Shown piece after piece: positions 1,413-22,854 of a stretch of 24,556 bases of DNA; the first letter of the stretch is position 1, and each line of letters begins with the position of its first letter. Both the position numbers and the translations under genes were made by a program. The DNA lies in the sequence record PQ561395; one strand, given 5' to 3'. The notes under the pieces were generated by a model. The model made no database searches, was not told where the DNA came from, and saw only the letters and a program-made list of their open reading frames with translations. Source of the DNA: Escherichia phage Ec1-ASingh.

Positions 1413-2810
1413 TTAACCGTCCACATTAAAATCAATACGAGTGATGTATTTACTACCCCACGCCGAATCCGCTTGGGGTATGGAGGCGTAACCGTCAACA
1501 GCCTGAACGTTTATCACGGAGCCGTCGGAGTAGGTAATGTCAATGCTTGTCGCGCTATTCATGGTTACTTTTGCTGATGCCGTCGTTCGGGTTACCGGTG
1601 ACGATTCGGTTACTATTGGCGACGTGGCAAAAGGTGATTTTTCTATTTGCATCGCGCACACTAATATCCCACTAACCCCGTCACCGACAAATGAACCAAC
1701 GGCGGAGTTGTTGTACACCCATGACGCTAAAAGCAGAGAAGATGCGCCGCCCTGGCGTATAGCTACCGTTTCTGTAAATCGATACCAACCATCGCCAAGC
1801 TCTGCTATATCGCTGCCGGGGGCGCCCGCGTAAATAACCCCTGTCGATAAGTTAGCAACACAATCCGCGATAAACCCAGCATCATCAGCGGCGCGAAGTC
1901 TCGCATAATTATAGCCATATGCCTTAGCAACGTAACTGAGAGTGTATACATCACCCTCCGCAAAAGCGGAAGACACCGATTGATATACGAGATGGCTGTC
2001 GTTTGTCTGGGTCGGGACTAGTGAGAACGTACCGCCGTTTAGAAATCCGTCAACGGCGTCCGACACTGTTGCTCTAGTTTTAACCCACGATGCGTCAGAT
2101 AATTTCGACGATTTAATCAGGATATTGCTGGATGTGGATTCTGGCGGCACACGCCCGACCGCAACACCATCAATGAACGTAAGAGGCCATTCATTGGCGG
2201 CGGACTGCACAAGATTGCCATTTCGGTTGATGTAGTAAACCTGTGGCCCATCGTAAACAATGCGGCTATCAAGAGTCGACGCCAGAAGGTTAATCGGTGG
2301 ATACCCGGCAGGCCCTTCATTGCTCCAGATGCGCGGGAACGTAGTTTCGTAGTTCGCGTATATTTTCAGGAAACATCCCAGCCCATCGCCATAGCAACCG
2401 TACAAATCTGGAAGATTGTTAATCAGACACTGGTTCTCTTGGTCCTGGAACGGCGATTTCTCGGCGGTTGCCGTGAAGGTAATCGTCCAGTTAATGCCGT
2501 CTTCGGTGGACTCCGCGATGGTGGATGTAATTGTTACCTGGTAATCCTCAATGCCCATGCCGAAGTCGTGCGCCATCCAGAAACTTGACGCACCGCCGTC
2601 TACTTTTTCGAGGAACGACAGAAACGCCTGCCGCCCCAGCGCCGATGTAATCAGAGTTACGCTTACCGGAAACACGTCATAATAAGTGTCACGGCCCTGA
2701 CGTACGCCGCCTCCGGCTAAATCTACGCTCCAGACGTTATTGCGTCTGGTCATTGAGTAGCCTTTTGATACCACAGGCTTAAGGCTACGTGGGAAATATA
2801 CTTCGCTCAT
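1413..2810 (-). CDS. minor tail protein M-like N-domain fused to ~350-aa C-terminal extension
   Basis: ORF track 465 aa; start overlaps tape-measure stop (TAATG). N-terminal ~115 aa (VSVTLITSALGRQAFLSFLEKVDGGASSFW) resembles lambda gpM (YSVTLSVPREEATVLESFLEEHGGWKSFLW); remainder unrecognised. Confidence 0.5.
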   Translation of the reverse strand: MSEVYFPRSLKPVVSKGYSMTRRNNVWSVDLAGGGVRQGRDTYYDVFPVSVTLITSALGRQAFLSFLEKVDGGASSFWMAHDFGMGIEDYQVTITSTIAESTEDGINWTITFTATAEKSPFQDQENQCLINNLPDLYGCYGDGLGCFLKIYANYETTFPRIWSNEGPAGYPPINLLASTLDSRIVYDGPQVYYINRNGNLVQSAANEWPLTFIDGVAVGRVPPESTSSNILIKSSKLSDASWVKTRATVSDAVDGFLNGGTFSLVPTQTNDSHLVYQSVSSAFAEGDVYTLSYVAKAYGYNYARLRAADDAGFIADCVANLSTGVIYAGAPGSDIAELGDGWYRFTETVAIRQGGASSLLLASWVYNNSAVGSFVGDGVSGILVCAMQIEKSPFATSPIVTESSPVTRTTASAKVTMNSATSIDITYSDGSVINVQAVDGYASIPQADSAWGSKYITRIDFNVDG

Positions 2811-5149
2811 TATTTAAACCCCGGCGCGTTTCTTGTGGCCTTGCGGGCCTTGCTAATCTTACTGTTGCTGTTCTGCAAAGATGCGGCCACTTGCTCTTCT
2901 ATGATGATGCGCAAACGGCCTTCGTCATCCTGCTCTGTAGATACGTTGCCAATCTGACTCGATGTGTTATTTACAATGGTAACATTAGATGGGCCGGAAG
3001 AAGACCCGTTTTGCCCCATAATTTCTTTCATCTGCTGCGCGGTTCGTACGCGCGATGCACCAGCAGGCATGATAACTTCTGGTTTACCGCGTTCGGCGAT
3101 GGTGGAAGCCTGCCCCGCAGATAACTGACCGCCCTGTTCACGTGCGGACCTGATAGCGGAAACCTGCGCCATACCTGCCCCAACGGCAGCGGCAGCGGCT
3201 ACAGGGGCCAGGAACGGGCCAACTACAGGGATAGCCGCCGTGGACTTGTATGCCTCAATAGCCGCGGTGTAAGTGGCGATAGTGGCCTGTACGATAGCGA
3301 ATGCCTTATACGCGCCAGAAGCCTCCCCCAACGCGGACCCGATGTTTGAAGCCATGTTACCGAAGGCGGCTGCCGTTGCGTCGGCGCGCTTCGTGGCGTA
3401 CTGCTCGTTGATGGCGTTGAGCGCGGCCTGATACTGCTTCTCGCTAATCAGACCCTGTTCACGGTACTTATCAGCTACCGCCAACTTCTGCTGTTCCTGG
3501 ATGTCGAGAAGCTCAAGCTCAGTGGCGTTCTGGCCCATAATCTGAGCCATGAAGTCGTCGCCTTTCTGCTGCTTTTCCTGCCGTTCTTTCTCCCGCTTGG
3601 CGAGTTCTTCCTGACGTGCGGTGTCCGCCTCCAGCATAATTTGAGTTTTGGCGTTCTCGTATTGCTGGTCGCTAAGAAGCTGGTTGCCGTAAAACTCTTG
3701 TAGCTTGGTTAACTGTTGCTCCTGATTAGCTTCTATTTTCTGGAATACGTCGTCATTGAGATGAATCGACTGGTAGTAGAAATCCTCCGCGGCTTTCTTC
3801 TGGCGCTCGAACGCGTCCGCAGCTTTCTTGGCGGCTTTTGCACCAGCATTATCATCTTCGGACCCGCCACCAGTACCAGTTACCTTAAATTTACTAAGCC
3901 CTTCTTCCTTAGCGGCTTCTTTGTCGATGTCATATGCCGCGCGTTTAAGCGCGACGATATTTTGCTGAGCCTCCACCTGTTCGCGGAAACTTTTACGGGT
4001 CAGGTCCGCAACATCGCGCTGAGTATCCAGTGCCATCCCTAGCTGGAAGTTAATGTTTTTTGCTACGTCTACAGATTCCCCTGGTGTGAAGGCTGCTTTC
4101 ACCAACCGGCCAGCGTCCTGCGCCCCTTTAACCATATCTTCAAAGAAGCGCTCCATCGCGGTAAATTCTTCCGCGATGAAATCGAGCGCATCGGCTGCTG
4201 ATTCCGCGATGGTTGTCGCCGTTTGTTCGCCGCTGTCGGTGATACTTTTACTGCTAAAATCCCAAAGTTCATTCAGTCCATTTATCGCGTCACCTACAAA
4301 ACCAAATGCCGCGTCGAACGACATCTCTATCGCGCCGCCCACTTCTGACGCGATGTCACCCCACATACGCATCTCAGCGGTGAGTTCGCCGGATGCTACC
4401 TGTGCGTTAAGTTCCTGGATTAAATCATCGATGTACCGGATAGGTTCCGCAAGAGCACCAACATCAAGGCTGGTAGCCAGTGTCATTTTTAACTGCGACC
4501 ATGAGTCGCTGGCACTGGCGATGGCCCCGTTAAGTGTGTTGGCCTGGTCCGCCATAGCCCCCGCGAAGTTTACGTTACCAATGTTGAGCAGGTATTGCTC
4601 GATGTCGGCAGCGCTCTTCTTAACTACCGTAGTGGTGCCCTGGAATGTAAATTCAACATCGTTTTTGTTCTGCTTGGCCTTGATACCAAATTCTTTAAGG
4701 CGCTCAAATTCAAATGTACTAGCGTCCGCAACGGCCTCAATCATCTGATTAAGGTCTTTACCCATAGCAGCGGCAGTGTTGCCATAGGAGCGCAACGCTT
4801 CTTCTGAGGGGGTAAGGCCGAGAGCCACCAGTTTACGGAATCCCTCTACCGCCTGTTCAAGGCCATACGGAGTGTCGCGCGCGAAGTCTTGCAGGATGCT
4901 TAACGCCTGTCTTGCCCCCTGCGTGCTTCCGGTTAGTGTTTTCAGGCTGGCGGACATCTTGTCCAGTTGCCGTTGGGAGTCTACCAGTTCCTGTGCGGCC
5001 TTGTACGCTGTCGCGGCGACAATTGAAGCGAGTCCAGCTACGGCTGCCCCCGCTACTTTTGCCGACTTGGAGAGATTATCAAGACGGTCCGATGTAGCTT
5101 TCGCGCCTTGCTCTGATACCTTTACAACTAAACTAGCTACATCAGCCAT
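2810..5149 (-). CDS. tail tape measure protein
   Basis: 779 aa, Ala/Gln/Glu-rich with long coiled-coil-like stretches; lies immediately downstream of the G/GT chaperone pair. Confidence 0.8.
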   Translation of the reverse strand: MADVASLVVKVSEQGAKATSDRLDNLSKSAKVAGAAVAGLASIVAATAYKAAQELVDSQRQLDKMSASLKTLTGSTQGARQALSILQDFARDTPYGLEQAVEGFRKLVALGLTPSEEALRSYGNTAAAMGKDLNQMIEAVADASTFEFERLKEFGIKAKQNKNDVEFTFQGTTTVVKKSAADIEQYLLNIGNVNFAGAMADQANTLNGAIASASDSWSQLKMTLATSLDVGALAEPIRYIDDLIQELNAQVASGELTAEMRMWGDIASEVGGAIEMSFDAAFGFVGDAINGLNELWDFSSKSITDSGEQTATTIAESAADALDFIAEEFTAMERFFEDMVKGAQDAGRLVKAAFTPGESVDVAKNINFQLGMALDTQRDVADLTRKSFREQVEAQQNIVALKRAAYDIDKEAAKEEGLSKFKVTGTGGGSEDDNAGAKAAKKAADAFERQKKAAEDFYYQSIHLNDDVFQKIEANQEQQLTKLQEFYGNQLLSDQQYENAKTQIMLEADTARQEELAKREKERQEKQQKGDDFMAQIMGQNATELELLDIQEQQKLAVADKYREQGLISEKQYQAALNAINEQYATKRADATAAAFGNMASNIGSALGEASGAYKAFAIVQATIATYTAAIEAYKSTAAIPVVGPFLAPVAAAAAVGAGMAQVSAIRSAREQGGQLSAGQASTIAERGKPEVIMPAGASRVRTAQQMKEIMGQNGSSSGPSNVTIVNNTSSQIGNVSTEQDDEGRLRIIIEEQVAASLQNSNSKISKARKATRNAPGFK

Positions 5150-5923
5150 CGTTTCTACCCTCGAAAATAGCGTCTAAGCTCATGATGATGTCAGATTCGA
5201 ACATGCCTATATTCTGGCCTGAAACGGTGCTGTATGCCACTAAATCCGACCATCTTAACTGTTCGCGCGGGTACATCTTGATGCCATCATCGTCCACTCG
5301 GCGGGTGAATTTGATTTCCCTGTACTTCTCGAAGGTGGTTAATAGCTCAGGGGGGCATTCCGGCCCTGTGTCCTGCGTTGCTTCCGGCGCGTCTTGCATA
5401 ACCCCCATAGCAATTAGCGCAGCTTTATGCCCGTCGGCAATACTGTCAAACTCCCGCCGTTTGTGGCGGGTTATGAAGTTCCAACGGGCAAACTGGAGCA
5501 ACGCGTCTACTTTTCCTGCAATTGATGAAGCTGTTCATTGTGGAAAACAACAACGTGTTCAGCGAGTCGTTTATATTGTGAGAAAAGAGTATTCAGGTTC
5601 TCTTTATTAAATTCATCGTCGAGACTCCAACCGTTAACCAGTTCAAGCGCTAACTGGCGGTTGAGGTCTGTTGCGGCGTCTTCCATCTTGATGTTGTATT
5701 CCGAGAAATCTTTCAGTTCCTCGCATTTATCGCGAAGCGGTTTCAATTTACCTAATGCCGCGCGGTACGCAAGTGTAAACGCCCTCATAGCTTTAACAGC
5801 AACGTCTGCCTCCGGTGAAACAACGTTCAGCCACTCCCCTGAATCGGTGCCGTCTTTCAGTGGTATCGGCATACGGGCGCCTTTTTCTGCCTCAGCTTCG
5901 TAATAAAAATCAGAAAGTTTCAT
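5142..5923 (-). CDS. tail assembly chaperone GT-like fusion (predicted -1 programmed frameshift product)
   Basis: The 119-aa ORF 5142-5501 has no own ATG/RBS (TTG only) and is open upstream into the 3' end of the G ORF in the -1 frame. mRNA reads CAG GAA AAG UAG; slipping at A-AAG gives ...QEK-VDALLQFARW... Confidence 0.5.
5507..5518 (-). promoter_or_regulatory. putative -1 ribosomal slippery site (G-GAA-AAG followed by UAG stop)
   Basis: Sequence read directly; A-AAG Lys-tRNA slip motif adjacent to stop codon. Not the canonical X-XXY-YYZ heptamer. Confidence 0.35.
5507..5923 (-). CDS. tail assembly chaperone (lambda gpG analogue)
   Basis: 138 aa acidic ORF between major tail protein region and tape measure; followed by an overlapping -1 frame ORF (5142-5501); AAGGA RBS upstream. 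Confidence 0.6.
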   Translation of the reverse strand: MKLSDFYYEAEAEKGARMPIPLKDGTDSGEWLNVVSPEADVAVKAMRAFTLAYRAALGKLKPLRDKCEELKDFSEYNIKMEDAATDLNRQLALELVNGWSLDDEFNKENLNTLFSQYKRLAEHVVVFHNEQLHQLQEK

Positions 5924-6030
5924 TCTTTAATCCTTTGGTTAAGAGGTTACTGGTTAAGGTTAATGCGCCAGACGGGAACCACCCGCTTTTCGTGTGCGAC
6001 ACTAGGCGCAAAATAATTCTAACACATTAC

Positions 6031-6059
6031 TTGCACACCCCAACATAATAGGATACTAT
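6031..6059 (+). promoter_or_regulatory. sigma70-like promoter (TTGCAC-17nt-TACTAT), copy A of a repeated 33-bp element
   Basis: TTGCACACCCCAACATAATAGGATACTATTCAC at 6031-6063, 30/33 identical to 15786-15818; followed by AACAGGAG RBS and ATG at 6101. Confidence 0.5.
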
Positions 6060-6100
6060 TCACTTACACCAACAATGTTAACTCAAACAGGAGCTACCCC

Positions 6101-6292
6101 ATGACAGGTATTACTATGTTCTTCTTAATCATTATCGTTTTAGTTTATTTTATCCCATTTCTCGTGGCGCATATGCGCAACCATAAAGCTAAATTAGCGA
6201 TATTCATGGCTAATCTGTTTCTCGGTTGGGTTCTGCTGCCGTGGGTATTTATTTTAATATGGGCGTGCAACTCGAATGTCAAAGAGAAGTGA
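6101..6292 (+). CDS. superinfection-immunity-like small membrane protein
   Basis: 63 aa, two hydrophobic helices; motif FIPFLVAHMRNHKAKLAIFMANLFLGWVLLPWVFILIW matches the P.I.A..R.H.N...I..N.FLGW..IGW pattern of the Imm_superinfect family as I recall it (PF14373); RBS CAGGAG. Confidence 0.55.
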   Translation: MTGITMFFLIIIVLVYFIPFLVAHMRNHKAKLAIFMANLFLGWVLLPWVFILIWACNSNVKEK

Positions 6293-6331
6293 GCTAGTAT
6301 AGGACAAATCCTAAACACGAGGAAGTAAAGC

Positions 6332-7462
6332 ATGGCTCATAAGAAAATAACCGACGAACAGTTACGGGAAGAATTGAACGCCGGAACAAAAATTATTGAT
6401 ATCGCACGTAAGTACGGAATCTCAGACCGCGTTATCCGTATCCGTAAAGCGAAGCTGGCTAAGAAAGGTGTAGGCCACGGTCGCGACGTTAGTCACCTTG
6501 TGCCTGACGGCTACAAGATTAAAGGTACGTCGTCTCTGGTGGACGAGTTCGGCAACACTAAACTGCAATGGGTTAAGACCGACACTGACGCAGAACGTCA
6601 GGTCGAGTTGATGAAAGCTGTAATCGAGGGCATGAAGTCAGAGATTACGCCGGTTGCGCCTGTTAAAGCCGTTCGCGCCAAACGTGACGATAAACTACTT
6701 AATCTTTACACTGTATCTGATTTCCATCTCGGTATGCTGGCCTGGGCCGACGAGAGCGGCGACGACTGGGATATGAAGATTGCGGAAGACCTGTTCTCTC
6801 GCTGGTTCGACGTGGCATTTCAGAAAGCGCCGGACGCGGGAACAGGTGTTATTAACCTGCTGGGCGACCTTGCGCACTTCGATAGTCTGGATGCCGTTAC
6901 ACCTGCAAGTGGTCACGTTCTTGACGCCGACACCCGTTATCAGAAACTTGTCCGCTACATGATTCGTATGGTTCGCCGTGTTGTTGATATGGCGCTGGTT
7001 AAGCATAAAAATGTTCGCTTGCTTATCGTGCAAGGGAACCACGACGAAAGCGGAATGATTTGGTTAGCTGAGATGTTCAGTACGCTGTACGACAACGAGC
7101 CTCGTGTGTTCGTCGATACGTCGCCGGATGTTTACAAGATGGTGCAACACGGTAAAACGACACTGTTCTTCCACCACGGGCATAAAGCACGATTCGACGC
7201 TATCGAACCGGTTATGATTGCTAAGTTCCGCAAAGCGTTCGGCGAGAGTGTTTACAGCTACGCCCACGTGGGCCACCTGCACCATCAGAAGATTGTAGAA
7301 AGCCGTAACATGATTGTTGAGCAACACCGCACCTTAGCGGCTAAAGACGCCTACGCCTCCCGCGGCGGATGGATGTCAGGCCGTAGTGCAAATGTAATTA
7401 CTTATAGCGCCGAATATGGTGAGGTCGCACGTTTAACTATTTCACCGGAGATGCTGGGATGA
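6332..7462 (+). CDS. HTH domain + calcineurin-like metallophosphoesterase
   Basis: 376 aa. N-terminal HTH-like segment (IIDIARKYGISDRVIRIRKAKL); then phosphoesterase motifs in order: SDFHLG, GDLAHFD, QGNHDE, FFHHGH, GHLHH. RBS GAGGAAG. Confidence 0.7.
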   Translation: MAHKKITDEQLREELNAGTKIIDIARKYGISDRVIRIRKAKLAKKGVGHGRDVSHLVPDGYKIKGTSSLVDEFGNTKLQWVKTDTDAERQVELMKAVIEGMKSEITPVAPVKAVRAKRDDKLLNLYTVSDFHLGMLAWADESGDDWDMKIAEDLFSRWFDVAFQKAPDAGTGVINLLGDLAHFDSLDAVTPASGHVLDADTRYQKLVRYMIRMVRRVVDMALVKHKNVRLLIVQGNHDESGMIWLAEMFSTLYDNEPRVFVDTSPDVYKMVQHGKTTLFFHHGHKARFDAIEPVMIAKFRKAFGESVYSYAHVGHLHHQKIVESRNMIVEQHRTLAAKDAYASRGGWMSGRSANVITYSAEYGEVARLTISPEMLG

Positions 7463-7659
7463 AAGACATGTATGAATGCACCGATGTGAGTCCGTACGCG
7501 GAGAAAAATGGATTCGAAGTAGGTGCTGTATATGAAGGGGTCACCCTAGAGAATGGCGACGTAAGAATGTATTCGCCTAAATATCGCAGCTTCTTTGAAA
7601 TAGGCAACATTAACGAATCAGGCATAGCCCGATTTAAGAGAGTTAACAGTGACAAATAA
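7459..7659 (+). CDS. hypothetical protein
   Basis: 66 aa; ATG overlaps upstream stop (ATGA), GGAG upstream; same operon. Confidence 0.45.
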   Translation: MKDMYECTDVSPYAEKNGFEVGAVYEGVTLENGDVRMYSPKYRSFFEIGNINESGIARFKRVNSDK

Positions 7660-7879
7660 ATACAACCGTACAATGACAAACACTCACGGCAGCACTATGA
7701 CTGTAGACGTTTATGATGTGCTTCGTGCTTTCGACATCCGCGACCCGGCGCTACAGCACGCATTGAAGAAACTGCTGTGCATGGGCTTGCGTGGCTACAA
7801 GGACACTGGAACAGACTTAGCGGAAGCAATTGAAAGTCTGGAGAAGTTACGAGAGTACAGGAGTAACATTGATGAGTAA
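7649..7879 (+). CDS. hypothetical small protein (weak DUF3310-like pattern, unverified)
   Basis: 76 aa from GTG 7649 (AAGAGAG SD upstream); alternative ATGs at 7673/7696. Motif DVYDVLRAF...ALKKLLCMGLRGYKD...DLAEAIESL. Confidence 0.4.
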   Translation: MTNKYNRTMTNTHGSTMTVDVYDVLRAFDIRDPALQHALKKLLCMGLRGYKDTGTDLAEAIESLEKLREYRSNIDE

Positions 7880-7883
7880 AACT

Positions 7884-7910
7884 AAGGCCCCGAAAGGGGC
7901 CTTAGTTTTA
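7884..7910. terminator. bidirectional rho-independent terminator
   Basis: AAGGCCCC-GAAA-GGGGCCTT hairpin flanked by A-run upstream and AGTTTTA downstream; lies between convergent genes ending at 7879 (+) and 7908 (-). Confidence 0.6.
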
Positions 7911-8540
7911 TCGTTGCGACTTAATTACAGAAACGACTCTTGGATATATCCTCCCGTCTATGGAATCCATAAGCGGCTTAAGTTCTTCTGCTATTTCCAA
8001 TTTCCGCAACGTTCTGGCCTTGATGGCTTCGTCCAAGTCAATAAAATCGCCTAAGTTTTCTCGTACCCCGGTTATGGGGTTGTTAACACGGCATCGTATC
8101 TTGCCGTTTGTTTTTCTATAAGTAAGGCCTATTGGCAGATCGCCCCTAACCGCTGCGCTGTCGGTTAGGAAGTTGTTTAAAACCCTTGGGACAAAGATGC
8201 ATGTCTCCGGTGAGTATTCTTTAGCATCTGTAAGTAAATCCTTGTCTACATGCCAACCATCTACGTAATTATCTTTATACCATTTAAAGTAGTTGGAGAA
8301 ATATAGCCAGTCTTCGCACACTACCACACCTGCGTATGTTGGGTGCTTGGCGGCCCCGTGGTAGCACCTGGATATCATCGCATACCAAATATCATATACT
8401 GGGTGGTTAACAGACTTTTTGCCGTTGAAAATACTAGTGGTAAAATCAGCGTCGTTGATACCGACACCGCAGATTGTTTTACGGCATGATACCGCCCGTT
8501 TTGATGCGGGTATCTTTTCAAATTCTTCATACAGAAACAT
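7908..8540 (-). CDS. hypothetical protein (conserved W-x2-M-x2-RC / aromatic-rich motif; nuclease- or DNA-binding-like, family not identified)
   Basis: 210 aa ORF; motif YDIWYAMISRCYHGAAKHPTYAGVVVCEDWLYFSNYFKW; located between major tail protein and the plus-strand cassette. Confidence 0.5.
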   Translation of the reverse strand: MFLYEEFEKIPASKRAVSCRKTICGVGINDADFTTSIFNGKKSVNHPVYDIWYAMISRCYHGAAKHPTYAGVVVCEDWLYFSNYFKWYKDNYVDGWHVDKDLLTDAKEYSPETCIFVPRVLNNFLTDSAAVRGDLPIGLTYRKTNGKIRCRVNNPITGVRENLGDFIDLDEAIKARTLRKLEIAEELKPLMDSIDGRIYPRVVSVIKSQR

Positions 8541-8647: not shown

Positions 8648-9814
8648 TTATACGTAACTAATACGTTGAATTACGATAGACGACTGGTACTGATTGCCTG
8701 TGGACTGCCCTTCAATGCTTTGGGTAATTGACTCTGGGCCTGATATTTCTGGTGTAACCGCCGTAAGCTCTGCACGTTTCAGACTGAAAGACATAGCTCC
8801 GTTTACCCCTGCCAGAATAGAGTTAATCTCAACCTGTTGCTCGTTGATAAACTTCTGAATCATAGCCATGTCATACAGCTTGCCGGAGATGGAGAATGTG
8901 TTAGCTGCACGGCCTCGCTCCACGAACGCGACGCTACTGTTGCCGAGTTCGAACTGCGCGGAAGCACCGTTGTCGTTGGTGATGGTCAGGGTATCGCAAC
9001 GCAATGGCGTAGAACCGTCGAACACGGAAACGTCAACCGAGGAGAACGGCTCGTCACCAAACGTAACAGTGGAGAAGTCAGAGCCTGCTGGCGGTACAGA
9101 AAGAATTTCCTGACTCAGACCGATGAACGGGAAGCTGCCTGTCACCATCGCGTTTACGGCCTGTTCAATGGTGAAACCGGAGATCTCCACGCCTTTGGTC
9201 AGCATGTACGCGCCAGGGTTATCGCACTGGCCTTTGAACCATGTCAGGATGGAGAACGTCTTACACACATTACCGGTTTCCAGTTTGTCGCCAGTTTTTG
9301 CGTCAGTGGTTACTGTCTCTGCTGTCAGCGTGTGCTGAATACCTGCGCCCGTAACTACCAGAGCGGAAACCGCGGTCACGATAAACGGTTTTGAGTTGTC
9401 GCCGGTTAAGTCGGTGAACGCAATCAGGTCGCCAACTTCTACACCGTCAGTAATGAAGCTACCGGCAGCGCGGGTGAATGTTTTACCTGCCGGGGCGACC
9501 GTAATTTCGGCGTCAGTAATCTCTACCCCAGCTTGCCACGTAGACGTCATCGCGCCCGCGAGGAAATCATCCTGACTACGTGAGCTAAGTTCGATGGCGT
9601 ACTCCCCGCTAACCTGTTTGTTACCGGTGCGGATGGATGTGGTTTCTCGGCTGCCGTCCAGTTCGTTGGAGGTCAGCGCATCGCGGGTTACCGCAGGAAC
9701 ACCGCCCGTATTGCGCAGCGGCGACCAGACAGGGTTGTCTGGGGTTACGCCCGGGGTCACTTCCGCCACATAGAATTGCGCTGTATTCGCGCCCTTAAAA
9801 GGAGTTGTAGCCAT
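8648..9814 (-). CDS. major tail (tube) protein, putative
   Basis: 388 aa Thr/Ser/Gly-rich ORF; position after neck/terminator genes and before G/GT chaperones. Confidence 0.55.
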   Translation of the reverse strand: MATTPFKGANTAQFYVAEVTPGVTPDNPVWSPLRNTGGVPAVTRDALTSNELDGSRETTSIRTGNKQVSGEYAIELSSRSQDDFLAGAMTSTWQAGVEITDAEITVAPAGKTFTRAAGSFITDGVEVGDLIAFTDLTGDNSKPFIVTAVSALVVTGAGIQHTLTAETVTTDAKTGDKLETGNVCKTFSILTWFKGQCDNPGAYMLTKGVEISGFTIEQAVNAMVTGSFPFIGLSQEILSVPPAGSDFSTVTFGDEPFSSVDVSVFDGSTPLRCDTLTITNDNGASAQFELGNSSVAFVERGRAANTFSISGKLYDMAMIQKFINEQQVEINSILAGVNGAMSFSLKRAELTAVTPEISGPESITQSIEGQSTGNQYQSSIVIQRISYV

Positions 9815-15785: not shown

Positions 15786-15814
15786 TTGCGCACCCCAACA
15801 TAATAGGGTACTAT
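15786..15814 (+). promoter_or_regulatory. sigma70-like promoter (TTGCGC-17nt-TACTAT), copy B of the repeated 33-bp element
   Basis: TTGCGCACCCCAACATAATAGGGTACTATTCAG at 15786-15818; followed by AACAGGAG RBS and ATG 15842. Confidence 0.5.
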
Positions 15815-15841
15815 TCAGTTAACTTAAACAGGAGATGAGAA

Positions 15842-16363
15842 ATGATTACTACAGTAATTACTTTCCCTGCGTATGTAGGGGCGAAAATATGCAGGGCTAA
15901 AAATGATGTTCGCTACTATTTGAACGCTTTTTACATAGACCCTGAGGGATTGATAGTGTCTACGGACGGTCATAGATTGTTCTGCGACAATGTGAAGACC
16001 AACGTTGAGAAAGGGACTCTCATAGACATCAAAGGGAGAGAGCCTTCTAAATTTAACTACGCGGAGGTAAACCACGACAACGGCAGTGTATCTTTCTATG
16101 ACGATAATCGTGCGCTTATATGTACACTTCCGGTAGATGTTGTAGAAGGAAACTTTCCTGACTGGAGACGCGTGGCGCGCATTACTCCTGGTACCGTCGA
16201 TAGCATAGGGTTCTCTCTGCGCTATTTAGCAGACGCGCACAAGATTTCTAAGGCGTATAAAAATGAAATTGCTCGTTTCGATTTCCAGGACCAAACAAAC
16301 GGATGCAAAATATCATTTTCAAACACAGCATTTATGGTGTTAATGCCTGCGCGAGTTAAATAA
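15842..16363 (+). CDS. truncated beta sliding-clamp (DnaN) homolog: domain II plus C-terminal half of domain III
   Basis: 173 aa. Motifs matching E. coli DnaN (from memory): NDVRYYLN (DnaN 150-156 DVRYYLN), STDGHRLFC (ATDGHRLAVC 171-180), GNFPDWRRV (GRFPDYRRV 240-247), FSLRYLADA (FNVSYVLDV), C-terminal MVLMPARV (VVMPMRL 360-366). No domain I equivalent. Confidence 0.8.
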   Translation: MITTVITFPAYVGAKICRAKNDVRYYLNAFYIDPEGLIVSTDGHRLFCDNVKTNVEKGTLIDIKGREPSKFNYAEVNHDNGSVSFYDDNRALICTLPVDVVEGNFPDWRRVARITPGTVDSIGFSLRYLADAHKISKAYKNEIARFDFQDQTNGCKISFSNTAFMVLMPARVK

Positions 16364-16366
16364 ACT

Positions 16367-16390
16367 AAGGCCCCATAACGGGGCCTTTTA
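16367..16390. terminator. rho-independent terminator (shared by convergent genes)
   Basis: AAGGCCCC-ATAAC-GGGGCCTT hairpin then TTTATCATT; 3 nt after stop of 15842-16363 and abutting stop of minus gene at 16391. Confidence 0.55.
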
Positions 16391-18858: not shown

Positions 18859-20340
18859 TTACTGCTGAGTGCCATCTTGTTGCCGCGCCGACTGCGGAAT
18901 CTCTCCTACCACCTGAGTAACAGCACCTAACGGCAGAGGTGCGTCCTCAATAGCGTTCTGAATATCCTCGTCGGTCCAGTCAGTCACCCCTGCTTTACGC
19001 AACGCGGCGTAGTAAGCTGTAGCCGGTAACAGGCCTGCGTTAATATCCACCATCCACTGTGCACGGTCCTGAGCGGTCATCGGTTGCAGGAAGAACTCCA
19101 TGTTAAGTTTGAACTCAATCTCTGTGCCTTCACGCAACCCTAGCATCGCAGCCACCCAGCGCAACGAATCGGTGTACGCCATGCTTACGTTACGTGCGAT
19201 TGTCGCCATAACAGACGTATCCGCACCACGTTGCAGGCGGGCAGATTCAGCGGTTATTTGCTGCGTCGGGGTGATAAGCTGCGCGCCAATCTGGATGGCC
19301 TGATTCTCTTTATCCAGCATGTTCTGCTTAGCCAGGTTGTTCTCCTCTGCCTGAACCAGAAACGCGTTGCCGCCGTACCCGATGTTATGGCCTGAACGTG
19401 ACCCCATGCGCACGCCGTGTGGGTTGGCCTCTTTCCACTGTTCCATGCTCATGTTCTCGCCCGGGGCGATGAACAGAGTGGGCTGGCCTACAACGAAACT
19501 GGACTCTTCATTGTCCGCGCTGTTACGGAAATGCCCGATATTCAGCTCAGCTAACGGTAGCAAAGGTGCGTCGTCGATGGTGGCATCGTTGTTGCTTGCC
19601 CCGATGAACGTGAACGGGATTTTGCCGCGTAACTGTTCGCCAAGTTCAGGGAATATTTCGATTACTTCGCCCTGCGCGCCACCTTCGGCATCGAAGCGGT
19701 AAATGCGCTGGCGGTAGCGCCCGTCGATCAAATCGAGAACGCGGTATTGCTCACCGAATTTTGTTTCGAACTCTGCGCCCAGTTCCGAGTATTCCCACAC
19801 CTCGCGCAACACAACCATCGTCACGCGGTTAACAGAACCGACGCGAGTCAGTCGCCAGTTGATGATGTTCTCTGCGGTATAGAACGCAATGACCGGGTTT
19901 AATAGTCCCGCGTTCTGTTCGGCTGCCGTTGCTGCGGCGGTCTCTGGTGCATCAACCAGCAACCCGCCACGACCTACCGAGTCAATTTCCATCAAAGTAT
20001 CCTGCGCGTGCTGCCATAGCCCGACGCCCGAACCGTCAGCGTTGCGTAACAGGTACTCAAGTTCAGGCGGGATAATCTGCTCAGGGTCTTTACGCATAAC
20101 ACTGCCGACCATCCCCGCCAGGGTACGTTTAGTGAAGTTGTAGCAGATAGCGCCGTTCTCGTATTCTTCCTGGCGCTGTGCCGCATAGGTCGGGTCAGGC
20201 TCGTTCTTCCCGACGTTGCGCAGATAGCGAATAAGGTCGCCTTCCAGCGCGTGGCGTACCTTCTGCCATTTATCGAAGTGATGCAGCCATTCCCGGTGTT
20301 TTGTCTTAACACCCTGATTCTGACCGTTCATAGTTAACAT
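18859..20340 (-). CDS. portal protein
   Basis: 493 aa; position between terminase/HNH and head morphogenesis gene; size and composition typical of portals. Confidence 0.75.
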   Translation of the reverse strand: MLTMNGQNQGVKTKHREWLHHFDKWQKVRHALEGDLIRYLRNVGKNEPDPTYAAQRQEEYENGAICYNFTKRTLAGMVGSVMRKDPEQIIPPELEYLLRNADGSGVGLWQHAQDTLMEIDSVGRGGLLVDAPETAAATAAEQNAGLLNPVIAFYTAENIINWRLTRVGSVNRVTMVVLREVWEYSELGAEFETKFGEQYRVLDLIDGRYRQRIYRFDAEGGAQGEVIEIFPELGEQLRGKIPFTFIGASNNDATIDDAPLLPLAELNIGHFRNSADNEESSFVVGQPTLFIAPGENMSMEQWKEANPHGVRMGSRSGHNIGYGGNAFLVQAEENNLAKQNMLDKENQAIQIGAQLITPTQQITAESARLQRGADTSVMATIARNVSMAYTDSLRWVAAMLGLREGTEIEFKLNMEFFLQPMTAQDRAQWMVDINAGLLPATAYYAALRKAGVTDWTDEDIQNAIEDAPLPLGAVTQVVGEIPQSARQQDGTQQ

Positions 20341-20344
20341 TGTC

Positions 20345-20959
20345 TTACTCCGTAGTTAGTTTACGATATACAGCCGCGCACTTTCGCCCGCAGGTGACAC
20401 GAGGTTTATAGCGGTTATGCTCGTGAGTAGCGCCGCAGACGGGGCATATAGCTGTTACGTTATCTACCCCCGAAGCCCGTCTATGGGCTGCTAAGCATCT
20501 TTTAGAACAAAAACAATTCTCGCCCTTTGTCGGTATAGCCGTAAACTCTTTATTGCAATAAGAGCATATTTTTTCAATCTTAACGCGAAGTTTGTCTTTT
20601 GTGGCTTCGTAATGTGCCTTATGCCACTGCCGGCCTGCTTCACTGGCGTGCCACTCTTTAGTTAAATGCTGGTGCTTGCGGCCCATTTCGGCAGACCTGG
20701 CACGCGCTTCATCAGTAGAGAAATGCAGATAGCTATGGTCTGACGCCGAGAGCATCTCTAGATTTTCTATTTGATTATTTGAGCGGTCTTCGTCTTTATG
20801 GTGGATGTCATACCCTTCGGGGATTTCCCCGTTGAAATACGACCATACAACCCTGTGCAGCCTTTTAACAATTGACGAGTTCATAAAATAGTTACCACAC
20901 AAATAGTAACGCGTACCGTTAAATTCTTGGATTGCTGGGGATATAACTTTTACTCGCAT
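20345..20959 (-). CDS. HNH endonuclease with C-terminal Cys-rich zinc-ribbon region
   Basis: ATG at 20959 (MRVKV...) has an AGGAGG SD; track start 20986 is upstream of it. Motif GYDIHHKDEDRSNNQIENLEMLSASDHSYLH is HNH; C-terminus has CSYC...CFC...C...CPVC...C..C. Confidence 0.75.
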   Translation of the reverse strand: MRVKVISPAIQEFNGTRYYLCGNYFMNSSIVKRLHRVVWSYFNGEIPEGYDIHHKDEDRSNNQIENLEMLSASDHSYLHFSTDEARARSAEMGRKHQHLTKEWHASEAGRQWHKAHYEATKDKLRVKIEKICSYCNKEFTAIPTKGENCFCSKRCLAAHRRASGVDNVTAICPVCGATHEHNRYKPRVTCGRKCAAVYRKLTTE

Positions 20960-21015
20960 ATAGCCTCCTGATTGTTTACCTAACAATATCAGTAAGACCG
21001 ATGCGAGTAAATACG

Positions 21016-22251
21016 CTATAACGCGAATCTGACAGGAGTGTTGATAACAGGGCGGACAACAGGGAACAACCTATGCATACAATAACCTAAACTGTCATTC
21101 CAGTCGTCGATAGCCGGGTGAGTTTTAAACTTCTCCGGTTCGCCATTATCGTTATACCCCTGCGTCTCCAGTGACTGCGTTAATTTAGGGCATTTTGAAG
21201 TGTTAACCTTCAAACGGCTATGTGACAAAAGAGCGTTAACCGCGTTTATTCGGTCTTTAACGAATGGGTTCTTACTTGGAGCGTTAACACGCAAGCCGGC
21301 TTTTTCTATGATACCTATGTCGGATAATGATGCATTAGTGTGACCTGAGCGGCCTGATGCGTCGGGGTAAACCGTAACCGTATGGCCCGGATACCGTATC
21401 CTGACATTATTGACGAAGTCGTCGGTATTATGGCTGACAAACTCATCAACAACCGTCGGGTTGCCGTCTTCGATAACGCTCACGGTGGCGCAACAGCCGC
21501 CGATGTTAAAGTCCAGCCCTATGTGCAGAGCGTCTCCATTCTGCAAGGCGCGGGTGGAGTCATGTGTGCTTCGTTTGAAATAGTGGTACACCTTATTGGC
21601 AGTCAAACTGACAAATTCACCGTTGATATACATATCAGCCAAAGCCGCGTCGTAGTTCCTTCGTATCTGCTCGACGTAGCCTTCAGGTAAATATGGGTTC
21701 GACAATGTAGATGCCTTAATCAGTTCCGTAGAACTGTCGGCGTTAGTAACCCAATAGTCATACACAAATCCGGAGAATCCCTGGTCAGGTGTAGTCACGG
21801 CGGCAATACTGTTCCCACCCCTACATGGTTGTCGGGTACGCTCTGAAATCTTACGCCACACCAGAGACGCCTGTTCTTTAGTGAGAACGTCAAGTTCATC
21901 GGCGACAGAATGGGCTACTTCAAAAGCGATTAGACGATTCGGGTTGTCATATGACCTGAAAAACATAGTACCGTACCCCTTAACGTGGATACTGTATTCC
22001 GATTTGTTGAGGTCGTACTTAAGCCCCATCATATTCAGGTCGTCAATCACACCAGGGATGGCGCGCAGCTTCAACAGGTCATACGTAGGCATAGTGTATA
22101 GAGTGTTTATCCCGCGCTCGCGCAACATAAGATACAAAAGGCGCATCGTTGCCGCGCGGGACTTACCCGCCCCCAGTCCCGCGACAATAGCTGGATGTGT
22201 CTTTGTGCTGAATACAAAGTCCTGTTGTGGCTCTGTTAATGGGATATCCAT
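21016..22251 (-). CDS. terL: terminase large subunit
   Basis: 411 aa; Walker A-like AGLGAGKS near N-terminus; start overlaps terS stop (TAATG). Confidence 0.85.
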   Translation of the reverse strand: MDIPLTEPQQDFVFSTKTHPAIVAGLGAGKSRAATMRLLYLMLRERGINTLYTMPTYDLLKLRAIPGVIDDLNMMGLKYDLNKSEYSIHVKGYGTMFFRSYDNPNRLIAFEVAHSVADELDVLTKEQASLVWRKISERTRQPCRGGNSIAAVTTPDQGFSGFVYDYWVTNADSSTELIKASTLSNPYLPEGYVEQIRRNYDAALADMYINGEFVSLTANKVYHYFKRSTHDSTRALQNGDALHIGLDFNIGGCCATVSVIEDGNPTVVDEFVSHNTDDFVNNVRIRYPGHTVTVYPDASGRSGHTNASLSDIGIIEKAGLRVNAPSKNPFVKDRINAVNALLSHSRLKVNTSKCPKLTQSLETQGYNDNGEPEKFKTHPAIDDWNDSLGYCMHRLFPVVRPVINTPVRFAL

Positions 22252-22763
22252 TACTCGCCCCCCGGTTTAACAGCATTAACGAAACGAATCTCGATAGGTT
22301 CGGAACCCTCGCCAATCAATTCTTCTTTCTTATTCAGCCCCAGTTTAGCGGCAGCAAATGTAGCAGAGATGCCCGCGGCACCTGTCTCGGTGAAGTATGC
22401 CTCTTCCAGCGCTTGAGCTGTTTCCCAGGCTTCCGCAAATGCGGGAATCTCACGCAGCCACAGCTTAATAATCGGGATAGTGACGCCGATGTGTAAGGCG
22501 AAGCGGGCCAGTGACGGTGGCTTATCCTGAATCAGCGGACGTTCGTCACCCTTAGACGTAGGCACAAGTTCCCACGACGTGCGGTCGAAGAAACGAACCA
22601 ATTCGTCGCAATAGTCCGGGTCCCACAACGCAGCGGAATTACGGGATGATTGATAAAGGCTCTGTTTACCGCGCGGTCGTCTACGGCGACGATTTGCGCT
22701 AACAGCTTCTTCATGTGCAGCTTGCACCACCTCTGGCGATGGCTGCTTAAGTTTCAGCTTCAT
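22251..22763 (-). CDS. terS: terminase small subunit
   Basis: Directly upstream of and overlapping terL; basic region RRRRRPRGK. Preferred start is ATG 22763 (MKLKLKQ, AAGGGGA SD); track ORF begins at GTG 22802. Confidence 0.6.
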   Translation of the reverse strand: MKLKLKQPSPEVVQAAHEEAVSANRRRRRPRGKQSLYQSSRNSAALWDPDYCDELVRFFDRTSWELVPTSKGDERPLIQDKPPSLARFALHIGVTIPIIKLWLREIPAFAEAWETAQALEEAYFTETGAAGISATFAAAKLGLNKKEELIGEGSEPIEIRFVNAVKPGGE

Positions 22764-22854
22764 AGAATCCCCTTGCATATGCGTCTGACCATCAGAGCGC
22801 ACCAGACGCGCCCTACGCGCCTAAAGGGATTATATAAGGGGATTGGGCGAGATG

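What the first reader, a model, noticed from the sequence alone, without database searches (positions are those of the whole stretch)
6031..7910. Plus-strand moron cassette in the tail module: Imm-like membrane protein plus HTH-metallophosphoesterase
A 4-gene operon runs against the late genes, between a promoter (6031-6059) and a bidirectional terminator (7884-7910), and sits between the major tail protein region and the G/GT chaperones. Gene 1 is a 63-aa two-helix membrane protein matching the superinfection-immunity pattern. Gene 2 (376 aa) fuses an HTH to a full calcineurin-like phosphoesterase motif set (DFHLG, GDLAHFD, GNHDE, HHGH, GHLHH). These motifs fit Mre11/SbcD-type nucleases and also cyclic-nucleotide phosphodiesterases or protein phosphatases. 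The two small downstream genes are translationally coupled. The combination suggests a superinfection-exclusion or anti-defence module (for example degradation of a signalling nucleotide, or a DNA-targeting nuclease), but the function is not established.
Basis: partly seen in the sequence, partly recalled or inferred. Interest (0 to 1): 0.65.

Follow-up and report, generated by a model that had tools for sequence, protein, structure and literature searches.

The report
Early-gene island inside phage tail genes
A virulent E. coli phage (Kagunavirus) carries, backwards inside its tail genes, a self-contained four-gene unit with a T4-Imm-like exclusion protein and a DNA-binding Mre11-like phosphoesterase; the layout is real and conserved but already annotated in hundreds of relatives, and the enzyme's role is still untested.

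Summary
The unit runs promoter (6031-6059), Imm homologue (6101-6292), HTH-metallophosphoesterase (6332-7462), two overlapping small ORFs (7459-7659, 7649-7879) and a perfect 15-bp bidirectional hairpin (7877-7910). It is antisense to the late genes, between the tail tube and G/GT chaperone genes.

The window is a virulent Kagunavirus (Guernseyvirinae), so lysogen-based readings do not apply. The same island sits at this position across the subfamily.

- Only the 376-aa enzyme is constant. The Imm slot and the downstream slots swap cargo.
- The enzyme belongs to a very large, uncharacterised phage family: about 2,000 phage genomes, including T1-like phages and Dhillonvirus.
- Its catalytic residues are invariant. 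Its closest folds are PolD-DP1, SbcD and Mre11. It lacks a capping domain and a Rad50 partner.
- The promoter is a 32-nt phage-specific sequence. It recurs in the window ahead of a RusA-like resolvase, and recurs four times in a complete relative.

Best reading: an early-type island combining entry exclusion (Imm) with a DNA-directed nuclease. A signalling-nucleotide anti-defence role is not supported. The components belong to known kinds and interest is modest.

The parts
6031..6062 (+). Cassette promoter. -35 TTGCAC is at 6031-6036 and -10 TACTAT at 6054-6059, with a 17-nt spacer, inside a 32-nt phage-specific conserved sequence.
   Evidence: The hexamers and spacing are invariant in 6 Guernseyvirinae. 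The 32-mer repeats at 15786-15817 (2 mismatches) and four times in phage fBC-Eco01. The fBC-Eco01 record annotates its copy as a PHIRE phage promoter.
6077..6093 (+). Shared leader and Shine-Dalgarno block, GTTAACTCAAACAGGAG.
   Evidence: The same 17-mer (1 mismatch) precedes the RusA-like gene at 15818-15834, and precedes both corresponding genes in fBC-Eco01.
6101..6292 (+). 63-aa membrane protein with two hydrophobic segments, a homologue of T4 Imm (superinfection immunity).
   Evidence: PF14373 E = 7.7e-14, 51.8 bits against a cut-off of 27.9; phrog_1039. BLASTP to T4 Imm gives 28% identity and E = 9e-12, with T4 R33 and W50 aligned to R26 and W43. Two hydrophobic segments are visible. omega is 0.03-0.09.
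6332..7462 (+). 376-aa HTH-metallophosphoesterase. Residues about 8-44 form a three-helix HTH, 61-104 a beta-hairpin plus helix, and 119-376 the phosphoesterase domain.
7459..7659 (+). 66-aa ORF of unknown function in a variable accessory slot. Its start overlaps the stop of the phosphoesterase gene (ATGA).
   Evidence: No Pfam, PHROG or NCBIfam match. It is found in only 25 Kagunavirus records. Relatives carry other genes in this slot.
7649..7879 (+). 76-aa conserved ORF of unknown function. It has a GTG start and overlaps the previous ORF by 11 nt.
   Evidence: phrog_2452 E = 1e-35. tblastn finds it in 773 phage records. omega is 0.02-0.03. The AF2 model (pLDDT 84.7) is a beta-hairpin plus three helices with no informative fold match, Z no higher than 5.3. 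It is absent from some Kagunavirus relatives.
7877..7910 (.). Bidirectional intrinsic terminator: a perfect 15-bp stem with a GAAA loop, flanked by an A-run and a T-run.
   Evidence: Folding z-scores are -7.4 and -7.3 on the two strands. It contains the stop codon of the 76-aa gene (7877-7879) and of the convergent HNH gene (7908-7910). The same hairpin core lies next to the tail tube gene in fBC-Eco01.

Best explanation
This is an insulated transcription island of the phage's own early-type promoter regulon, embedded antisense in the tail-assembly gene cluster of a virulent Kagunavirus.

How the unit is built:
- A phage-specific 32-nt promoter with a shared leader fires into four genes.
- A perfect bidirectional hairpin stops this transcript. 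It also stops the converging late transcript from the tail tube and HNH genes.

Gene 1 is a T4-Imm homologue. It most likely sits in the inner membrane and blocks genome entry of secondary phages by interfering with their tape-measure-protein channel.

Gene 2 is the only invariant component. It is a DNA-binding HTH fused to an active binuclear-metal phosphodiesterase of the Mre11/SbcD/PolD-DP1 structural neighbourhood, and it works without a capping domain or a Rad50/SbcC partner.
- I take it to be a DNA-directed nuclease of phage DNA metabolism.
- The most likely role is breakdown of host (or competitor) DNA and processing of DNA ends. T4 gp46/47 does this, and it has been shown or proposed for mycobacteriophage A10ZJ24 gp48 and T5 A1.

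The two downstream small genes are exchangeable passengers, not subunits.

Shown here: the anatomy, the homologies, the conservation, the fold and the promoter repetition.
Inferred: timing of expression, exclusion activity, nuclease activity and the substrate.
For: Anatomy and insulation.

Promoter regulon:
- The identical 32-mer and leader precede a RusA-like resolvase gene, closed by a similar hairpin, at 15786-16388.
- There are four copies in fBC-Eco01, one of them heading a rightward cluster of small genes outside the structural region.
- In Kagunavirus K1B4 RNA-seq, the imm gene falls in a different temporal class from the tail and capsid genes. It groups with the DNA polymerase and methylase genes (PMC12645636).

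Imm:
- establish the homology.
- A 2026 preprint reports that T4 Imm binds the tape measure protein, and that R33A and W50A weaken exclusion (10.64898/2026.03.06.709160).
- Relatives lacking Imm carry a signal-peptide protein in the same slot, so that slot holds envelope proteins.

Phosphoesterase:
- Catalytic residues are invariant in 98 sequences that are 31-50% identical to the window protein.
- Weak profile matches go to SbcD/Mre11 and the Pseudomonas putida MPE nuclease.
- Bona fide HTH domains of several Pfam types occur across the family.
- The gene is intact in every relative with enough flank.
- It is present in 2,043 phage records and 4,627 clusters at 50% identity, with omega 0.02-0.06.
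- Cargo placed next to it in relatives includes nucleic-acid and nucleotide enzymes: a PNKP-type HAD phosphatase plus a dNMP-kinase-like P-loop protein, and HNH endonucleases.

Precedents:
- An early mycobacteriophage MPE disrupts host DNA (PMC12287305).
- T5 A1 is needed for host DNA degradation and is described as similar to double-strand-break-repair and polymerase-proofreading nucleases (10.64898/2026.04.02.716235).
Against: - No experiment exists on any member of this HTH-phosphoesterase family.
- The window protein is below the Pfam gathering scores for Metallophos and Metallophos_2.
- Sequence relation to T5 A1 is limited to motif III (hhalign probability 17%). Relation to mycobacteriophage gp48 was not tested.
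- The gene's neighbours differ between phage groups: lysis genes and terS, a methylase and holin, or tail genes. Context therefore gives no consistent functional clue.
- The promoter matches sigma-70 consensus poorly, and 'early' timing is inferred. The one RNA-seq study has coarse, multi-cycle sampling.
- Guernseyvirinae are sensitive to ApeA, which senses deoxydinucleotides, but Dhillonvirus, which also has the enzyme, is resistant. That observation does not discriminate.
Confidence: 0.55

Rival explanations
1. Anti-defence phosphodiesterase. The 376-aa enzyme hydrolyses an immune signalling nucleotide (CBASS, Pycsar, Thoeris or type III CRISPR messengers) or NAD-derived molecules. The island would then be a counter-defence module.
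Against: - The N-terminal DNA-binding HTH is a family-wide feature.
- The best fold matches are nucleases.
- The gene behaves like a core gene. It is intact in every relative examined, has omega about 0.03, and is shared by several virulent siphovirus groups. Counter-defence genes are usually patchily distributed.
- To my knowledge, the characterised enzymes that degrade immune signals (Acb1, Apyc1, ring nucleases) have other folds.
- There was no PADLOC match, although that library holds defence proteins rather than anti-defence proteins.
Confidence: 0.1
2. Recombination and replication end-processing only. The enzyme acts on phage DNA (hairpins, stalled forks, concatemer junctions) as a stand-alone Mre11/SbcD analogue. 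It would work with the RusA-like resolvase under the same promoter, and would play no part in host DNA breakdown or exclusion.
For: It shares its promoter and leader with a Holliday-junction resolvase gene. Its structural neighbours are SbcD and Mre11. In Drexlerviridae it sits at the end of the replication and recombination gene block. Database annotation calls it a 'DNA repair exonuclease'.
Against: It has no Rad50/SbcC-like partner and no capping domain. A sequence-reading HTH is unusual for an end-processing nuclease. This rival differs from the best explanation only in which DNA is the target, and the present data cannot separate them.
Confidence: 0.2
3. Regulator. The HTH is the business end. 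The protein would be a transcription factor (for example a late-gene switch acting on the adjacent divergent promoter region), and the phosphoesterase domain would be a sensor or accessory.
For: The N-terminus weakly matches sigma-70 region 4, LuxR/GerE and 'late transcriptional activator' profiles. The gene lies beside a highly conserved divergent intergenic region. In Dhillonvirus it lies just upstream of terS.
Against: All metal-binding and catalytic residues are invariant across the family, so catalysis is under selection. The type of HTH is swapped among members, which suggests a generic DNA tether rather than one conserved operator-reading head.
Confidence: 0.07

Closest known systems
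T4 Imm (immunity to superinfection; Pfam PF14373)
   Same: Both are small inner-membrane proteins of the same Pfam family. They share 28% identity over 54 residues, and the functionally tested residues R33 and W50 are conserved.
   Different: The window protein is 63 aa against 83 aa for T4 Imm. It is encoded by a siphovirus, divergently from that phage's own chaperone and tape-measure operon. Exclusion activity and target range are untested. Relatives carry a second allele (about 70% identity) or an unrelated secreted protein in its place.
Mre11 / SbcD nuclease subunits and PolD DP1 proofreading exonuclease
   Different: Identity is only 12-17%. The window protein has no capping domain, no Rad50/SbcC or DP2 partner gene, and no OB domain. 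It has an added N-terminal HTH and a beta-hairpin/helix module. It is not a member of these families.
Mycobacteriophage A10ZJ24 gp48 (cluster A phage metallophosphoesterase)
   Same: Both are phage-encoded metallophosphoesterases with all five motifs. gp48 is expressed early, has phosphodiesterase activity and disrupts host genomic DNA (PMC12287305). It is the closest functional precedent.
   Different: In gp48, motif I starts at about residue 10 (mutant D10G), so there is no N-terminal HTH module. Homology beyond the superfamily level was not tested here.
T5 pre-early protein A1, with A2 and the two-TM protein T5.005
   Same: A1 is needed for host DNA degradation and is described as resembling double-strand-break-repair and proofreading nucleases, the same fold neighbours found here. 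The T5 gene order is DNA-binding A2, then a 65-aa two-TM protein, then A1. That parallels the two-TM Imm followed by the HTH-nuclease here.
   Different: Only motif III aligns (hhalign probability 17%). T5.005 is not detectably Imm-like (E = 0.06 and no Pfam hit). A1 is 556 aa. This is a resemblance in architecture, not membership.
Pseudomonas putida MPE / PdeM (ligase-associated Mn-dependent ssDNA nuclease)
   Different: It is much smaller (about 200 aa), has no HTH and sits in a different gene context. The similarity is weak.
Morons of temperate phages (for example in lambdoid late operons)
   Same: Both are autonomous promoter-gene-terminator units placed between late genes, with exchangeable cargo.
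   Different: This phage is virulent. The unit is fixed at this site across the subfamily. It uses the phage's own repeated promoter, and it carries a conserved enzyme rather than a host-fitness factor.

Membership tests
T4 Imm family (PF14373 Imm_superinfect) | Matches the family HMM above the curated gathering score. | tested here: met
   51.8 bits against a cut-off of 27.9, E = 7.7e-14, covering all 42 profile positions. T4 Imm itself scores 58.2 bits.
T4 Imm family (PF14373 Imm_superinfect) | Direct similarity to T4 Imm, including the residues shown to matter for exclusion (R33, W50). | tested here: met
   BLASTP E = 9e-12 with 28% identity over 54 aa. R26 aligns with R33 and W43 with W50. 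The residue data come from preprint 10.64898/2026.03.06.709160.
T4 Imm family (PF14373 Imm_superinfect) | Small membrane protein with hydrophobic helices. | tested here: met
   Two hydrophobic segments, at about residues 4-22 and 31-55, appear in a Kyte-Doolittle scan. No dedicated topology predictor was run.
T4 Imm family (PF14373 Imm_superinfect) | Blocks DNA entry of a superinfecting phage and binds the tape measure protein. | not testable with these tools
   This needs plating assays and co-purification.
Calcineurin-like metallophosphoesterase superfamily | The five motifs DxH / GDxxD(H) / GNH[DE] / H / GHxH, with the metal ligands conserved. | tested here: met
   D130, H132, G178, D179, N236, H237, H282, G314 and H317 are invariant, and H315 nearly so, in 98 family members.
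Calcineurin-like metallophosphoesterase superfamily | Pfam Metallophos or Metallophos_2 above the gathering score. | tested here: not met
   20.7 bits against 27, and 18.5 against 21.5. Only 18 of 98 relatives reach E = 1e-3. The family is too divergent for the Pfam models, so membership rests on the motifs and the fold.
Calcineurin-like metallophosphoesterase superfamily | The metallophosphoesterase fold (my description: a beta-sandwich flanked by helices). | tested here: met
Mre11 / SbcD | Nuclease domain followed by a capping domain. | tested here: not met
Mre11 / SbcD | Partner Rad50/SbcC ATPase encoded by the same genome. | tested here: not met
   The complete annotated genome of relative fBC-Eco01 has none, and neither do the loci examined.
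PolD small subunit DP1 | Phosphodiesterase domain together with an OB fold, in complex with the DP2 catalytic subunit. | tested here: not met
Moron (autonomous unit in a late operon) | Own promoter and terminator between late genes. | tested here: met
Moron (autonomous unit in a late operon) | Present in some close relatives and absent in others; expressed from a prophage. | tested here: not met
   The island is present at this site in all Guernseyvirinae examined; only its accessory slots vary. The subfamily is virulent, with no integrase in a complete relative.
Signal-degrading anti-defence enzymes (Acb1, Apyc1, ring nucleases) | Homology or shared fold with a characterised member. | not tested
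   No sequence or structure of these proteins was compared here. Based on my own knowledge, they have 2H, MBL and CARF-type folds rather than the metallophosphoesterase fold.

The most novel reading that the evidence does not exclude
The HTH-phosphoesterase would be the long-missing host-takeover nuclease of small virulent siphoviruses (T1-like phages, Dhillonvirus, Guernseyvirinae). It would be tethered to DNA by its swappable HTH and function as T5 A1 and mycobacteriophage gp48 do.

In Guernseyvirinae it would be deliberately paired with an envelope-level exclusion protein, next to the phage's own tape-measure operon. Imm (or its secreted replacement) would stop competitor genomes at the membrane, and the nuclease would destroy host DNA and any competitor DNA that gets in. 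Together they would form a compact two-layer exclusion and takeover island.
Probability: 0.2. Interest if true: 0.55.

Novelty: new member of a known kind. Interest (0 to 1): 0.3.

Why it matters
The 376-aa protein stands for one of the larger phage enzyme families with no experimental data. It is found in about 2,000 sequenced phages and more than 4,600 clusters at 50% identity. That set includes T1-like, Dhillonvirus, Jerseyvirus and Kagunavirus phages, which are used in therapy and in model collections such as BASEL.

Knowing whether it degrades host DNA, processes phage DNA ends or does something else would fill a gap in how these small virulent siphoviruses take over the cell. It would also help explain why some defence systems that sense DNA breakdown products act on them.

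The Imm homologue offers a siphovirus test case for the recently proposed Imm-tape-measure mechanism. The repeated promoter-terminator units show how a virulent phage threads early-type genes through its late gene block.

None of this is surprising to a specialist. The value is as a well-defined experimental target.

Tried and rejected
- Sequence search of the 376-aa protein against PDB: nothing significant as a single sequence. The profile gave only weak GerE, SbcD/Mre11 and P. putida MPE matches.
- NCBIfam and PADLOC: no usable hits.
- First large protein search: only hits of at least 97% identity among those listed. Diversity came from the 50%-cluster library instead.
- 76-aa protein: no Pfam hit. 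Only 20 homologues turned up in the word-indexed search. The structure model gave no informative fold match. One GenBank record labels it 'DUF3310', but Pfam did not reproduce this at E below 0.1.
- 66-aa protein: no family, restricted to 25 Kagunavirus records.
- Test of whether the 76-aa gene travels with the phosphoesterase outside Guernseyvirinae: it does not. Dhillonvirus gp33, downstream of the enzyme, is unrelated.
- Homology of T5 A1, T5.005 and A2 to the island's proteins: not detectable beyond motif III.
- A minus-strand sigma-70-like site at 6081-6053, overlapping the cassette's -10: rejected as chance. Its -35 is not conserved in Jerseyvirus or the Pantoea phage, and the scan finds no more sites than shuffles do.
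- Rfam on the whole window: no hits.
- Bacterial genome scan: only one informative locus, a prophage in Pusillimonas.
- Literature searches for functional work on this family in Guernseyvirinae, Drexlerviridae or Dhillonvirus found only genome announcements.
- The supplements of the K1B4 RNA-seq paper held no phage expression table.
Full report
**What the window is.** The region 5900-8000 matches 450 phage records at DNA level. Nearly all are Guernseyvirinae. The best matches are Escherichia phages of genus Kagunavirus at 92-94% identity. The rest of the window is the structural half of such a genome, on the minus strand:
- terminase small and large subunits (22251-22802, 21016-22251)
- portal (18859-20340)
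- head morphogenesis protein, Hoc-like protein, scaffold and major capsid protein
- tail tube (8648-9814)
- G/GT chaperones (5507-5923, 5142-5501)
- tape measure protein (2810-5149)

Kagunavirus phages are described as small virulent siphoviruses (PMC11990801). A fully annotated relative has no integrase or repressor.

**Check of the observation.** The four plus-strand ORFs, their overlaps, the motif set and the hairpin are all present at the stated coordinates.
- The hairpin is a perfect 15-bp stem with a GAAA loop, an A-run on one side and a T-run on the other. It is far more stable than shuffles on both strands, with z about -7.4.
- It contains the stop codon of the 76-aa gene and the stop codon of a converging HNH endonuclease gene (7908-8540).
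- The promoter TTGCAC-17-TACTAT is a poor consensus match and was not reported by the generic scan.
- Its two hexamers and spacing are nevertheless invariant in six Guernseyvirinae, including a Pantoea phage, while neighbouring positions vary.
- All four ORFs are under purifying selection. omega is 0.03-0.09 for imm, 0.02-0.06 for the phosphoesterase, 0.12 for the 66-aa ORF and 0.02-0.03 for the 76-aa ORF.

**The promoter is a repeated phage element.**
- A 32-nt sequence containing the promoter (6031-6062) recurs at 15786-15817 with two mismatches.
- It is followed there by the same 17-nt leader and Shine-Dalgarno block. Next comes a plus-strand gene for a RusA-like Holliday-junction resolvase (15842-16363), and then a hairpin with the same GGCCCC core.
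- In the complete genome of fBC-Eco01 the 32-mer occurs four times with 0-4 mismatches. The copies lie before the Imm island, before the RusA-like gene, before two small antisense genes in the head region, and at the head of a rightward cluster of small genes outside the structural region.
- The RusA-like gene occupies a different slot in fBC-Eco01 than in the window. These promoter-to-terminator units therefore exchange cargo.
- The island is thus part of the phage's own promoter regulon, not a foreign insertion with a foreign promoter.
- The one RNA-seq study of a Kagunavirus puts the imm gene in a different temporal class from the capsid and tail genes. It groups with the DNA polymerase and methylase genes. 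The sampling is coarse (PMC12645636).

**Gene 1.**
- The 63-aa protein matches PF14373 well above threshold. T4 Imm matches the same model.
- The two proteins align directly, with E = 9e-12.
- A 2026 preprint reports that T4 Imm binds the tape measure protein, and that R33A and W50A weaken exclusion. Both residues are conserved here as R26 and W43.
- In Guernseyvirinae the gene is transcribed divergently from the chaperone and tape-measure operon.
- It comes in two alleles (at least 93%, or about 70-75% identity to the window protein). In some relatives it is replaced by a 108-114-aa protein with a signal peptide (phrog_14165).
- That slot therefore holds envelope-directed proteins, which fits an exclusion role.

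**Gene 2.**
- It matches phrog_704 ('DNA repair exonuclease') end to end. Pfam's metallophosphoesterase models match only weakly and below threshold.
- tblastn finds full-length relatives in 2,043 phage records. These include Guernseyvirinae, Dhillonvirus, Drexlerviridae, Klebsiella Webervirus-like phages, and Vibrio, Rhodobacter, Aeromonas and Campylobacter phages.
- An exhaustive search of 50%-identity cluster representatives finds 4,627 clusters.
- In 98 diverse members every metal ligand is invariant.
- Many members carry N-terminal HTH domains of different Pfam types: Fis, LysR, sigma-70 region 4, GerE and others.
- The AlphaFold model is confident, with pLDDT 92.7. It shows a three-helix HTH, a linker, a beta-hairpin plus helix, and then the phosphoesterase domain to the C-terminus.
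- There is no capping domain, and a complete relative encodes no Rad50/SbcC-like partner. The protein works like an Mre11-type nuclease domain but is not a member of that family.
- Gene context outside the subfamily is inconsistent:
  - In Dhillonvirus it lies between the lysis genes and terS.
  - In Drexlerviridae it lies between a methylase or small genes and the holin.
  - In a Vibrio phage it lies after an OB-fold protein.
  - In a Pusillimonas prophage it lies after the lysis genes and near the integrase.

**Genes 3 and 4 and the variable slots.**
- The 66-aa ORF occurs only in 25 Kagunavirus records.
- Other genomes have different content at that position:
  - nothing at all;
  - a PNKP-type HAD phosphatase, which in locus L045 is followed by a dNMP-kinase-like P-loop protein;
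  - an HNH endonuclease;
  - an unrelated 161-aa protein.
- The 76-aa ORF is widespread, with 773 records. It is absent from several Kagunavirus relatives. It does not accompany the phosphoesterase outside the subfamily.
- Its fold is a beta-hairpin plus three helices and has no informative match.
- Jerseyviruses add a Rha/KilAC protein after the first terminator.
- In 39 metagenomic relatives the phosphoesterase gene is intact wherever the contig reaches it.
- The island is therefore one constant enzyme gene surrounded by exchangeable passengers.

**Most likely function.**
- The fused HTH, the nuclease-like fold, the invariant active site and the core-like conservation point to a DNA-directed nuclease. 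So do the co-regulation with a junction resolvase and the nucleic-acid and nucleotide enzymes found beside it in relatives.
- Two phage precedents exist:
  - An early mycobacteriophage metallophosphoesterase disrupts host DNA and thereby silences defence genes (PMC12287305).
  - T5 A1 is required for host DNA degradation and is described as resembling the same two nuclease classes.
- To my knowledge, T4 gp46/47 serves both host DNA breakdown and recombination.
- I cannot separate 'host DNA breakdown' from 'phage DNA end processing' with sequence data.
- I put about 0.55 on a DNA nuclease overall. Host or competitor DNA is slightly favoured as the target.
- A role in hydrolysing immune signalling nucleotides is possible in principle but has no specific support (about 0.1).

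**Comparison with the known, and novelty.**
- Every part belongs to a known family or superfamily.
- GenBank records of close relatives already annotate the island as 'superinfection immunity protein' plus 'DNA repair exonuclease', 'metallophosphoesterase' or 'phosphoesterase'.
- The following are not in the literature I could search:
  - any functional test of the HTH-phosphoesterase family;
  - the point that it is the only fixed component of the island;
  - the shared 32-nt promoter and leader;
  - the cargo exchange between slots.
- The finding is real and tidy, but ordinary in kind.

Noticed in passing
window 5964-6010 (minus strand), with 6016-6024: A roughly 46-nt element just upstream of the cassette promoter is more conserved than the synonymous sites of the flanking genes, across Kagunavirus, Jerseyvirus and Pantoea phages. 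On the minus strand it folds into an outer stem (GCGCC/GGCGC) enclosing two hairpins. In 13 distinct sequences, 95.9% of cells are paired against 86.6% in shuffles (0/500). Three pairs show compensatory changes. The G-U pairs fit only the minus strand. A conserved extended -10 (TGnTAGAAT, 6024-6016, minus strand) would start a transcript at about 6009, the 5' end of the structure. This looks like the promoter and a structured 5' leader of the chaperone and tape-measure operon. The folding z-score of the single sequence is only -1.6, and there is no Rfam match.
   Followed up: partly
window 15786-16388: A second plus-strand island in the late region. It has the same 32-nt promoter and leader, a 173-aa RusA-like Holliday-junction resolvase (phrog_3007), and a hairpin AAGGCCCC-ATAAC-GGGGCCTT followed by a T-run (z = -3.5). 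In fBC-Eco01 the homologous gene sits in a different slot, between the portal and head-morphogenesis genes. There, the slot corresponding to this window position holds two small genes under another copy of the promoter.
   Followed up: partly
window 7908-8540 (minus strand) and 20345-20986 (minus strand): Two HNH homing-endonuclease genes lie inside the structural block. One is between the cassette terminator and the tail tube gene. Many relatives lack it, and fBC-Eco01 has a 52-aa plus-strand ORF there instead. The other is between the terminase large subunit and the portal gene.
   Followed up: partly
window 5937-5962: Three to four GGTTA repeats sit directly upstream of the chaperone start codon (5923, minus strand). 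They are conserved from Kagunavirus to the Pantoea phage and occur once per genome. On the minus strand they read TAACC, within the leader of the chaperone mRNA. Their function is unknown.
   Followed up: no
L045 7121-8163; L002 4060-4548: Some Kagunaviruses carry, right after the phosphoesterase gene, a PNKP-type HAD phosphatase. In L045 this is followed by a dNMP-kinase-like P-loop protein. The pair resembles a split polynucleotide kinase/phosphatase or a nucleotide-salvage pair.
   Followed up: partly
L007 and relatives (Jerseyvirus), phosphoesterase gene: Jerseyviruses carry two very different alleles of the phosphoesterase at the same locus, about 88% and about 55% identical to the window protein. 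The neighbouring chaperone gene stays at 92%. This indicates allelic replacement by recombination.
   Followed up: no
L011 (phage T5) 1706-4134: The T5 pre-early region has the order A2 (DNA-binding), T5.005 (65 aa, two TM segments), A1 (nuclease-like, needed for host DNA degradation). This architecture parallels the Imm plus HTH-phosphoesterase pair here, but no sequence homology is detectable.
   Followed up: partly
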